UHGV virus genome: UHGV-0149432
Source of the DNA: a virus
DNA: 24,124 nucleotides
Strand: one strand, 5' to 3'
This document shows positions 9,534 through 10,386 of this stretch, piece after piece; the stretch's first letter is position 1; each line of letters starts with the position of its first letter. Made by a program: the position numbers and the translations under genes. The notes beneath the pieces were generated by a model that saw only the letters and a program-made list of their open reading frames with translations, ran no database searches and had not been told where the DNA came from.

Positions 9534-9540
9534 ACAATGG

Positions 9541-9774
9541 CTATTTGTCAGGCATGGTTTCTGTGCCAAATGTGCAGGTAAAGCCAATTCCAGGTCCCCA
9601 ATGACATTGAAACCTCATCGGAGTCATTGCGCTTATTTCTTCATGTAATGGCTGGCTTAGTGCTGGAGAATCAATGCTAATTTTCAGGCCCTCTGAAGGA
9701 ATCCCTGCATTTGATAGTTCACTGCTGAAATTTGCCAACGCCAATTTGAACTTTTCTATGTTTATTTCTGACAT
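9541..9774 (-). CDS. hypothetical protein (77 aa), accessory gene after the lysis cassette
   Basis: Minus-strand ORF with AGGAAGG SD 7 nt upstream of the ATG; convergent with Rz; AT-rich. Confidence 0.5.
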   Translation of the reverse strand: MSEINIEKFKLALANFSSELSNAGIPSEGLKISIDSPALSQPLHEEISAMTPMRFQCHWGPGIGFTCTFGTETMPDK

Positions 9775-10030
9775 TTTAGGCCTTCCTATGTGAGCGAGAT
9801 GATTCCCGTAATAAATTTATAGCCTAGGATGCTATAAAATTATTGTCCGGGATCACACTTCACTCATCTTGTAACGGAACGTTATTTTTTCGATTTTTAT
9901 AGAGTGGTCGGACTGCATGTTTAATAGGCAGGCATTCTGCCGACTAGGCTAGACTTTAGGTCATTGCAAAGCTCATCTGCGGTTGAGTTTGATAGTGGTG
10001 GGTAACGGGGAAGTAGATAAATTCGGCCTA

Positions 10031-10053
10031 AACCGCCTCCGGGCGGTTTTTTA
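10031..10053 (+). terminator. Rho-independent terminator
   Basis: AACCGCC-tccg-GGCGGTT stem-loop followed by TTTTTT. Confidence 0.55.
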
Positions 10054-10113
10054 TTGCCATCACCATGAGCAGACCCATCGTAATGGCAGTTTTTGAATAG
10101 GTCGCTAATAAAT

Positions 10114-10302
10114 TCATGGAGCATGGTTTTGGGAGGCTATTTGCATGCAGGCATCTCGTACTTGTATAGCAAGTCGAAGGCCTTCCTGAAATCTTGCTGA
10201 TGCGTTGGGATCGCTTGCCGAATTTAGATAGACATTAAAAAGTTGCATGACGGTAACGCTATATGCTTGCTTAATAGCATCTTCAGTAATTTTTTCACCC
10301 AT
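10114..10302 (-). CDS. hypothetical protein (62 aa), accessory gene
   Basis: Minus-strand ORF with AGGAG SD 7 nt upstream of the ATG; divergent from the terminase small subunit gene. Confidence 0.5.
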   Translation of the reverse strand: MGEKITEDAIKQAYSVTVMQLFNVYLNSASDPNASARFQEGLRLAIQVRDACMQIASQNHAP

Positions 10303-10386
10303 CGAGAATCTCCTGGTAGCATAGATGACAGGTTACTTCCTTCTTAATATAGGTCATCAATGGAAATATTTTAATAGGAAAAAGGC

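What the first reader, a model, noticed from the sequence alone, without database searches (positions are those of the whole stretch)
9534..10386. Accessory island between the lysis cassette and the terminase genes
Two small minus-strand genes (77 aa at 9541-9774 and 62 aa at 10114-10302), each with a strong SD, are separated by about 340 bp of non-coding DNA containing a stem-loop (GGCAG-gcatt-CTGCC, 9927-9941) and a plus-strand intrinsic terminator (10031-10053). Both are antisense to the late operon. Neither protein has a motif I recognise. This lysis-to-terminase gap is a common cargo site in lambdoid phages.
Basis: partly seen in the sequence, partly recalled or inferred. Interest (0 to 1): 0.5.

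Follow-up and report, generated by a model that had tools for sequence, protein, structure and literature searches.

The report
Two orphan antisense prophage cargo genes
The gap between the lysis and DNA-packaging genes of this prophage holds two real but very rare small genes of unknown function, each carried independently as accessory cargo, and they are separated by a 58-base terminator element that marks this same cargo site in more than a hundred other phage genomes.

Summary
Both minus-strand ORFs are real genes. orf62 has dN/dS 0.1-0.5 across five alleles. orf77 has dN/dS 0.10-0.15 against homologues of 50-64% identity. Neither matches Pfam, PHROGs, NCBIfam, PADLOC or PDB sequences.

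They are not a pair. orf77 homologues occur without orf62 in phages with unrelated packaging genes, and orf62 occurs without orf77. Each lies antisense to the late operon between the lysis and terminase genes, so they are two independent single-gene morons.

orf62 is a confidently predicted helical hairpin. It travels with the first 50-115 nt of terS. orf77 carries a promoter conserved across its family.

An exact 29-mer from it occurs in 114 viral contigs. It always lies in late-operon orientation between lysis and terminase genes, usually just after one of at least 45 unrelated small cargo genes.

A cos/pac site with incidental ORFs and a toxin-antitoxin pair are both rejected. The cargo-island reading is supported. 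This is a new member of a known kind, and the biochemical functions remain unknown.

The parts
9427..9533 (+). 3' end of the Rz spanin gene; left border of the DNA block shared with other prophages
   Evidence: Homology with L016-L019 begins at about window 9427. In those prophages this stretch is only a remnant, fused to a terS 5' remnant. The minus strand carries an imperfect hairpin (about 9472-9504) downstream of orf77. It has no U-tract and its folding z-score is not significant.
9541..9774 (-). orf77, a 77-aa acidic soluble protein of a very rare orphan family
   Evidence: ORF list. No Pfam, PHROG, NCBIfam, PADLOC or PDB sequence match. Homologues are P0012 (96%), P0020 (64%) and P0015 (50%), found in unrelated phages. 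dN/dS is 0.10-0.15. Invariant motifs are GIP-EGL and F-CH--PG-G-TCTF. The single-sequence AF2 model is weak, with pLDDT 65.7.
9781..9787 (-). Shine-Dalgarno sequence AGGAAGG of orf77, 6 nt before the ATG
   Evidence: Read directly from the sequence.
9810..9857 (-). Predicted orf77 promoter. The -10 element TATAAAT is at 9821-9815. A conserved TGTGA lies at 9857-9853, 36-37 nt upstream of the -10. A 14-bp inverted repeat (9810-9823 / 9831-9844) spans the core promoter.
   Evidence: TGTGAT and TATAAAT, and their spacing, are conserved in the three divergent family members while the rest of the upstream DNA is not. The inverted repeat is I4, 93% complementary. The consensus scan found no sigma-70 -35 element here, as expected for an activator-dependent promoter. 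Function is inferred.
9858..10029 (.). Orphan non-coding spacer containing the GGCAG-gcatt-CTGCC stem-loop (9927-9941)
   Evidence: No blastn match in the phage or plasmid collections. It is conserved only in the same prophage lineage, L014-L019. It has no open frame. The plus-strand fold is not exceptional, z -1.6.
10031..10088 (+). Conserved 58-bp double-hairpin element. Hairpin 1 is the plus-strand intrinsic terminator (stem 10030-10049 plus T-run). Hairpin 2 is a 14-bp imperfect stem at 10056-10087.
   Evidence: Terminator scan. An exact 29-mer occurs in 114 IMG/VR contigs. Conservation is sharply bounded at -3..+56 while the flanks are unrelated. The element lies 1-53 nt after the stop of a plus-strand ORF in 85 of 101 contexts, and those ORFs fall into at least 45 unrelated families. 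It always lies between lysis and terminase genes in late-operon orientation. It folds stably on both strands.
10114..10302 (-). orf62, a 62-aa helical-hairpin protein of a rare orphan family
   Evidence: There are 10 protein clusters at 81-100% identity in Citrobacter, Klebsiella, Enterobacter, Hafnia and Buttiauxella prophages. dN/dS is 0.11-0.53 with third-position bias. AF2 gives pLDDT 90.5 with helices 7-26 and 34-59. Foldseek found no significant match in PDB or BFVD.
10303..10386 (.). 84-bp divergent control region. It holds the orf62 SD (10314-10310), the predicted orf62 promoter (-10 at 10351-10346, -35 at 10374-10369, minus strand) and the terS ribosome-binding site.
   Evidence: Promoter scan, 9 of 12 matches. 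The spacing and most of the sequence are conserved in all orf62 loci.
10387..10989 (+). terS (terminase small subunit). Its first ~50-115 nt form the right border of the orf62 mosaic unit.
   Evidence: phrog_1206, E 7e-94. The shared block in L025-L027 runs from window 10029 to 10480. terS 5' remnants of 15-38 codons remain next to orf62 in L005-7 and L025-27.

Best explanation
The 853-bp gap is a two-slot cargo region of a lambdoid Citrobacter/Klebsiella-type prophage.

**Slot A (Rz to the 58-bp element).** It holds orf77 with its own activator-type promoter and a 5'-UTR hairpin.

**Slot B (element to terS).** It holds orf62. Its predicted promoter sits in the 84-bp spacer shared with terS.

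**The two genes.** They are unrelated single-gene morons, each acquired and exchanged independently. Both are transcribed against the late operon, so they can be expressed from the repressed prophage without the Q antiterminator. Their products are small soluble proteins. orf62 is a helical hairpin that probably forms a dimeric four-helix bundle. orf77 is a small alpha/beta protein with a conserved Cys-His...Cys hairpin. Neither has any enzyme signature. They therefore most likely act by binding a partner. The most likely role is that of a lysogen-expressed fitness or superinfection-exclusion factor.

**The 58-bp element.** On the plus strand it is an intrinsic terminator that closes slot A. 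Transcription started inside cargo genes then cannot run into the packaging genes, while Q-modified polymerase would read through. On the minus strand the same two hairpins form the 3' end of the orf62 mRNA. Because the element is conserved among otherwise unrelated phages, it also serves as a patch of homology at which cargo is swapped.

**Shown here:** gene reality, independence of the two genes, their position and orientation, and the distribution of the element.

**Inferred:** the promoters, expression in the lysogen, the read-through logic, the recombination-anchor role, and the biological role of the two proteins.
For: - **Real genes.** See (dN/dS; homologues).
- **Independence.** orf77 homologues in L020 (HK97-like HNH/TerL module) and L021 (Terminase_2 module) lack orf62. 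orf62 loci L005-L012, L025-L027 and L142 lack orf77.
- **Position.** Every copy lies antisense to the late operon between the lysis and packaging genes.
- **Accessory status.** Both genes are absent from phages with the same terS 5' end. GC content is low.
- **Own signals.** A conserved TGTGA-N31-TATAAAT and a 5'-UTR hairpin that keeps its place while changing sequence lie upstream of three divergent orf77 homologues. A promoter-like site for orf62 was found.
- **Element.**
- **Mosaic history.** Independent illegitimate terS'::'Rz joints in L016-19 and L025-27 show cargo units being stacked in this gap.
- **Literature.** The moron concept and variable hotspots in phages are established (PMC2629481; 10.1101/2024.10.15.618418).
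Against: - No expression data are available, and both promoters are predictions. The consensus scan misses the orf77 promoter.
- Neither protein resembles anything characterised. The exclusion/fitness role is therefore an argument from position and analogy only.
- The PADLOC defence models give no hit.
- orf77 has no canonical terminator.
- On the minus strand the element lacks a U-tract, so termination of orf62 transcription there is uncertain.
- Hairpin 2 shows no compensatory changes, and its two mismatches are conserved. This fits a sequence-specific site at least as well as it fits an RNA hairpin.
Confidence: 0.65

Rival explanations
1. orf62 is not generic cargo but a packaging-linked factor. 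It would modulate or protect TerS function, or interfere with the TerS of competing phages or satellites. It would be co-inherited with the DNA-recognition (N-terminal HTH) end of terS for that reason.
For: In every locus orf62 lies 84 bp (or about that) from the terS start codon or from a terS 5' remnant. The conserved block runs from the 58-bp element to about codon 32-38 of terS.
Against: HK639 and several Klebsiella phages share the terS 5' end at 91-96% nucleotide identity but have no orf62. In L005-7 and L025-27 orf62 is kept next to a terS stub of only 15-38 codons, and the working terminase is of another type. The linkage is therefore explained by recombination breakpoints in a conserved stretch.
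Confidence: 0.12
2. The minus-strand transcripts matter as antisense RNAs that damp read-through of the late operon into terS, in the way sar does in P22 or oop in lambda. The ORFs would be secondary.
For: Both transcription units are fully complementary to the late mRNA. The orf62 promoter lies inside the terS leader. The region is highly structured on the minus strand, z -3.6.
Against: Both ORFs show clear protein-level purifying selection. orf77 is conserved as a protein at 50-64% identity while its DNA and its sense-strand context are unrelated. An antisense regulator would be tied to its target sequence.
Confidence: 0.1
3. orf77 and orf62 form a two-gene system such as a toxin-antitoxin pair.
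For: Two small genes lie on the same strand in one gap. They occur together in the window lineage and in L016-19 with identical spacing.
Against: They are 339 bp apart, with two hairpins and a separate conserved promoter between them. Each occurs without the other in several unrelated phages. Neither hits any TA or defence model.
Confidence: 0.03
4. The region is the cos/pac site of the phage and the ORFs are incidental.
For: It lies immediately upstream of terS. The HK639 record starts 50 bp before its terS.
Against: The HK639 record start is arbitrary: its last gene ends 17 bp from the record end. Phages with the same terS N-terminus have unrelated DNA upstream. No repeated terS-site-like motifs were found. 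Both ORFs are under purifying selection. The portal (PF06381) and the Mu-F-like gene called downstream of it in the same prophage (L014) suggest headful packaging, where pac usually lies inside terS (established knowledge, not tested here).
Confidence: 0.03

Closest known systems
Morons of lambdoid phages, e.g. lambda bor (antisense, between Rz and cos) and the P22-like 'ant moron' (Juhala et al. 2000 and Cumby et al. 2012 from my own knowledge; PMC2629481 read here)
   Same: These are single accessory genes inserted in the late operon. They are present in some relatives and absent in others. They have their own predicted promoter and hairpin or terminator, a deviant base composition, and an orientation that allows expression from the prophage. 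The genomic gap is the same one that holds lambda bor.
   Different: Neither protein resembles Bor or any other characterised moron product. Neither has a signal peptide or lipobox. Expression from the prophage has not been shown.
Hypervariable accessory/defence hotspots of temperate phages (P2/P4 hotspots, PMC9122126; systematic hotspot survey, 10.1101/2024.10.15.618418)
   Same: A fixed position between conserved core modules holds many unrelated small cargo genes, organised as short terminator-delimited units. At least 45 unrelated families lie directly upstream of the 58-bp element.
   Different: Here the border is not a core gene. It is a 58-bp non-coding element shared by phages with at least 7 terminase best-hit classes and 2 endolysin folds. 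No known defence system was recognised among the cargo sampled; the hits were YnfU, DUF2513, DUF4145 and DUF2441.
'Boundary/linker sequences' at module junctions of lambdoid phages (Clark et al. 2001, HK620; recalled from my own knowledge, and the term is cited in PMC3029335)
   Same: A short conserved sequence between non-homologous modules could direct homologous exchange of the neighbouring modules.
   Different: The 58-bp element is also a canonical intrinsic terminator and is orientation-specific. No recombination function was tested.
Rop/Rom of ColE1 (63-aa helical hairpin that dimerises to a four-helix bundle)
   Same: orf62 has the same size and the same predicted helix-loop-helix architecture.
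   Different: Rop is not among the 50 Foldseek PDB matches listed. This is an architectural analogy only.

Membership tests
Moron (independently expressed accessory gene inserted in a phage operon) | Present in some phages and absent at the same position in close relatives | tested here: met
   orf62 and orf77 are absent from HK639 and the Klebsiella phages that share the terS 5' end. orf77 is absent from L005-L012, and orf62 is absent from L020 and L021.
Moron (independently expressed accessory gene inserted in a phage operon) | Own promoter | tested here: inconclusive
   orf62 has a promoter-like site with 9 of 12 matches. orf77 has a conserved TATAAAT and upstream TGTGA in three divergent homologues, but no -35 element. 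No transcript data exist.
Moron (independently expressed accessory gene inserted in a phage operon) | Own terminator | tested here: inconclusive
   orf62 is followed by two stable hairpins but only a UUU tail on its strand. orf77 is followed by an imperfect hairpin without a U-tract in the window. Its homologues in L020 and L021 have clear hairpins, and L021 has a U-rich tail.
Moron (independently expressed accessory gene inserted in a phage operon) | Base composition different from the surrounding operon | tested here: met
   GC is 0.36-0.47 in 9500-10400 and 0.52-0.59 in the flanks.
Moron (independently expressed accessory gene inserted in a phage operon) | Expressed from the repressed prophage | not testable with these tools
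   This needs RNA-seq or reporter fusions in a lysogen.
Toxin-antitoxin pair / two-gene defence system | The two genes co-occur and are co-transcribed | tested here: not met
   Each gene occurs without the other. A 339-bp spacer with hairpins and a separate promoter lies between them. There are no PADLOC, Pfam or NCBIfam hits.
cos/pac packaging site | DNA co-varies with the terminase small subunit that recognises it | tested here: not met
   Phages with a 91-96% identical terS 5' end have unrelated upstream DNA. orf62 is retained next to non-functional terS stubs.
Rho-independent (intrinsic) terminator | G+C-rich hairpin followed directly by a U-tract on the transcribed strand | tested here: met
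   The plus strand has an 8-bp stem with 5 G-C pairs, loop TCCG, then TTTTTTATT, with -26 kcal/mol for the double hairpin. On the minus strand the U-tract is only UUU.
Lambda Bor-type lipoprotein moron | N-terminal signal peptide with a lipobox cysteine | tested here: not met
   Neither translated sequence shows a hydrophobic N-terminal segment or a lipobox by inspection; no signal-peptide predictor was run.
Known RNA families (Rfam) | Covariance-model match at the gathering score within 9400-10500 | tested here: not met
   There are no gathering-level hits in the island. The only hits are sub-threshold matches to generic terminator hairpins.

The most novel reading that the evidence does not exclude
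The 58-bp double hairpin is a sequence-specific functional site rather than just a terminator. It could be a dedicated recombination anchor, or a protein-binding or RNA-processing site. It would define a universal, exchangeable cargo slot shared by enterobacterial temperate phages with unrelated lysis and packaging modules. On this reading, orf62 and orf77 are lysogen-expressed effectors of new families, either anti-phage or anti-defence.
Probability: 0.2. Interest if true: 0.6.

Novelty: new member of a known kind. Interest (0 to 1): 0.33.

Why it matters
The two genes add two very rare orphan families to the pool of prophage cargo. Such small proteins expressed from the prophage are the usual source of new exclusion, anti-defence or host-modulating functions. 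orf77 has four distinct sequences among about 15 billion proteins, and orf62 has about ten clusters.

The 58-bp element is more generally useful. It is a short, exactly conserved, orientation-specific landmark that locates the lysis-to-terminase cargo slot in more than 100 phage genomes with unrelated neighbouring modules. It could be used to harvest cargo genes systematically. It could also be used to test whether conserved non-coding linkers drive cassette exchange in phage mosaicism.

Tried and rejected
**Database and homology searches that gave nothing**
- Pfam, PHROGs, NCBIfam and PADLOC gave no hit for either protein or for the 67-aa overlapping ORF.
- tblastn against 50,697 phage records gave no match.
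- blastn of 9534-10035 against the phage and plasmid collections gave no match.
- PDB sequence profiles returned only chance hits.
- Foldseek of the orf62 model against PDB and BFVD returned only generic helical hairpins at E>0.7.
- No orf77 relatives were found in IMG/VR, GTDB representative genomes or JGI metagenomes.
- The afdb50 library was unavailable.

**Readings considered and rejected**
- The phmmer hits of orf77 to long TPR-repeat proteins are summed weak matches of one helix-turn motif to many repeats. They are not homology.
- A double-glycine bacteriocin leader in orf77 was considered. The spacing does not fit, and there is no transporter nearby.
- The Rop comparison showed no similarity.
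- The other antisense 64-aa ORF of L016 is unrelated to orf62.
- The 29-aa hydrophobic ORF that overlaps the orf62 stop (ATGA) is frameshifted in L025/26 and lacks a start in L011, so it is not a gene.
- The 67-aa ORF at 9921-10124 runs through both hairpins, and its left half lies in the lineage-specific spacer (9858-10029), so it is not conserved outside this lineage.
- A remnant of a plus-strand gene upstream of the terminator: no open frame is left.
- A plus-strand sRNA ending at the terminator: there is no promoter-like site, the fold is unexceptional and there is no Rfam hit.
- HK639 as evidence for cos: the record start is arbitrary.
- Covariation in hairpin 2: none was found.

Full report
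**Context.** The window is the late region of a lambdoid prophage. It contains an endolysin (8587-9075, PF00959), Rz (9072-9533, PF03245), terS (10387-10989, phrog_1206), a 491-aa terL (10989-12464) and a portal (12475-13950, PF06381). Proteins identical to the two ORFs are named by their sources as Citrobacter and Klebsiella variicola.

**Observation.**
- orf77 (9541-9774, minus) has the SD AGGAAGG 6 nt before its ATG.
- orf62 (10114-10302, minus) has the SD AGGAG 7 nt before its ATG.
- A 339-bp spacer lies between them, with no credible ORF.
- The GGCAG/CTGCC stem-loop sits at 9927-9941.
- The plus-strand intrinsic terminator has its stem at 10030-10049 plus a T-run. It is the only such site in 9300-10600.
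- The island is AT-rich: GC 0.36-0.47 against 0.52-0.59 in the flanks.

**Are the ORFs genes?** Both are.

*orf62.* It has ten protein clusters at 81-100% identity in prophages of Citrobacter, Klebsiella, Enterobacter and Hafnia. It also occurs in three IMG/VR contigs and in one GTDB representative, a Buttiauxella MAG. Five distinct alleles keep the 189-nt frame intact. They vary mostly at third codon positions (13/11/25). Pairwise dN/dS is 0.11-0.53.

*orf77.* The word-indexed search found only the query's own cluster. Exhaustive phmmer and a profile search then found two true homologues. P0020 is 64% identical and P0015 is 50% identical. A 96% variant, P0012, also exists. Against the two true homologues, synonymous sites are saturated while dN is 0.2-0.4. 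dN/dS is 0.10-0.15 where it can be estimated. Between the window and L016, both ORFs diverge about half as much (3.2-3.4%) as the non-coding stretches around them (6-7%).

**Are they a system?** They are not.
- orf77 homologues sit in L020, next to an HK97-like HNH/TerL/portal/protease/capsid module, and in L021, next to Terminase_2/Terminase_6N with a methyltransferase cluster. Neither locus has orf62.
- orf62 sits in L005-L012, L025-L027 and L142 without orf77.
- The constant features are position and orientation. Each gene always lies between the lysis genes and the packaging genes, and always opposes the late operon.
- In L021, as in the window, orf77 ends about 10 bp from the stop of Rz and converges on it.

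The two genes are therefore independent single-gene morons that happen to be neighbours in this prophage lineage.

**orf77 unit.** Upstream DNA of the three divergent homologues is unrelated except for three features.
- A TATAAAT lies at window 9821-9815 on the minus strand.
- A TGTGAT lies 36-37 nt upstream of it, at 9857-9852.
- A short hairpin sits at the start of the predicted 5' UTR. It keeps its position while its sequence changes: CGGGA/UCUCG, GCAGGA/UCCUGC and UUGCAGGA/CCUGCAA.

There is no -35 hexamer. A TGTGA centred near -41 with no -35 element is the layout of class II CRP-dependent promoters. That is my inference from established promoter architecture and was not tested. A 14-bp inverted repeat (9810-9823/9831-9844, 93% complementary) spans the core promoter in the window lineage.

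The protein is acidic and has no signal peptide or TM segment. Its invariant motifs are GIP-EGL and F-CH--PG-G-TCTF. The single-sequence AF2 model is weak (pLDDT 65.7, alpha-beta-alpha-beta-beta).

**orf62 unit.** AF2 with 12 sequences gives a confident helical hairpin: pLDDT 90.5, helices 7-26 and 34-59. It has no significant structural neighbour.

The conserved DNA block that carries orf62 runs from the 58-bp element on the left to about codon 32-38 of terS on the right, window 10029-10480. In L005-7 and L025-27 only a terS stub of 15-38 codons remains next to orf62, and the working terminase is of a different kind. Conversely, HK639 and several Klebsiella phages share the terS 5' end at 91-96% nucleotide identity but have other DNA upstream. 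The tight orf62-terS linkage is therefore best explained by recombination breakpoints in the conserved terS 5' stretch, not by function. A TerS-related role is kept as a rival.

**The 58-bp element.** The only part of the island with matches in the phage and E. coli collections is 10031-10090.
- *Distribution.* An exact 29-mer from it occurs in 114 IMG/VR contigs.
- *Boundaries.* Anchored on that match, conservation is 70-100% from -3 to +56 and drops to background on both sides, across 91 distinct contexts.
- *Upstream genes.* In 85 of 101 distinct contexts the element starts 1-53 nt after the stop of a plus-strand ORF. These ORFs fall into at least 45 unrelated families of small proteins, including YnfU-like, DUF2513, DUF4145 and DUF2441.
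- *Position and orientation.* Where enough flank is available, 47 of 57 loci have a recognisable lysis gene upstream on the same strand. 48 of 53 have a terminase or portal gene downstream on the same strand, and none is inverted. At least seven terL best-hit classes and two endolysin folds are represented.
- *Structure.* Hairpin 1 is a canonical terminator. Hairpin 2 is a 14-bp stem. Its loop is the most variable part, but it shows no compensatory changes and keeps two conserved mismatches. The pair folds at -26 kcal/mol on the plus strand and -33 on the minus strand, with z of -3.6 and -4.7.

I read the element as the terminator that closes the upstream cargo slot, and as a conserved patch at which cargo is exchanged. 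In the window, slot A does not hold a plus-strand gene. That DNA has no match elsewhere.

**History.** In L016-19 the block shared with the window begins inside the Rz 3' end. That Rz remnant (aa 91-153) is fused to a terS stub (aa 1-18), which follows another antisense 64-aa ORF. In L025-27 a terS stub (aa 1-38) is fused to a different Rz remnant (aa 110-152). These are independent illegitimate terS'::'Rz joints that stack cargo units in this gap. This is what the moron-accretion view of phage mosaicism predicts.

**Rejected alternatives.**
- *cos/pac site with incidental ORFs.* Both ORFs are under protein-level selection. The HK639 record start is arbitrary. The DNA does not track the terS N-terminus.
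- *Toxin-antitoxin or other pair.* The distribution contradicts it.
- *Antisense-RNA-only function.* It is unlikely, because orf77 is conserved as a protein in unrelated sequence contexts.

**What remains unknown.** The biochemical function of both proteins is unknown. I commit to this reading: both are small partner-binding proteins expressed from the prophage, with a fitness or exclusion role. The architecture carries about 0.65 confidence. The role itself carries much less.

**Verdict.** This is a correct and reasonably interpreted observation of ordinary phage cargo, and a new member of a known kind. The modestly interesting by-product is the widely shared 58-bp slot border.

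Noticed in passing
window 7082-7765 (stop codon at 7385-7387): The Q antiterminator gene is interrupted by an in-frame amber codon (TAG) where the intact homologue in L008 has Trp (HQKA-W-LLW). The same 101-aa truncated product is called in L014/L015. The prophage is probably defective for late transcription, which would leave the antisense cargo genes unopposed.
   Followed up: partly
window 7781-7857 (+): There is a full-length Rfam match to isrJ (RF01393, 55.5 bits against a gathering score of 37). It lies immediately downstream of Q and ends in a terminator hairpin. 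This is the position of the lambdoid pR'/qut/tR' late leader RNA, which suggests that 'isrJ' is a prophage late-leader transcript.
   Followed up: no
window 7700-8300, ORF 7872-8132 (-): A second low-GC stretch (0.37-0.41) lies between Q and the holin. It carries an 86-aa minus-strand ORF that gene callers also call in L014/L015. It is another candidate antisense moron.
   Followed up: no
L016-L019 (about 5240-5420) and L025-L027 (about 3640-3915): Independent fusions join a terS 5' stub (18 or 38 codons) to an Rz 3' remnant (from codon 91 or 110). They are scars of illegitimate recombination that stack cargo units between the lysis and packaging genes.
   Followed up: partly
window 10028-10117 (-): A 29-aa hydrophobic ORF (MNLLATYSKTAITMGLLMVMAIKNRPEAV) overlaps the orf62 stop in an ATGA arrangement and is called as a gene in some public records. 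It is frameshifted in L025/L026 and has no start codon in L011, so it is probably not a gene.
   Followed up: yes
window 10064-10076 and 10386-10398: The inner part of hairpin 2 (CATGAGCAGACCC) repeats the terS start region (CATGAGCAAACCC) with one mismatch. The element consensus differs by one more base, so this is probably chance.
   Followed up: no
L024 (Klebsiella phage ST101-KPC2phi6.1), about 2100-2225, minus strand: The unannotated gap upstream of the homologous terS contains an antisense small ORF with a good SD. It begins MSHLEVVLLITAYFSMAKAMIEF, hydrophobic like a type I toxin. A different small antisense gene therefore occupies the slot that orf62 occupies in the window.
   Followed up: no
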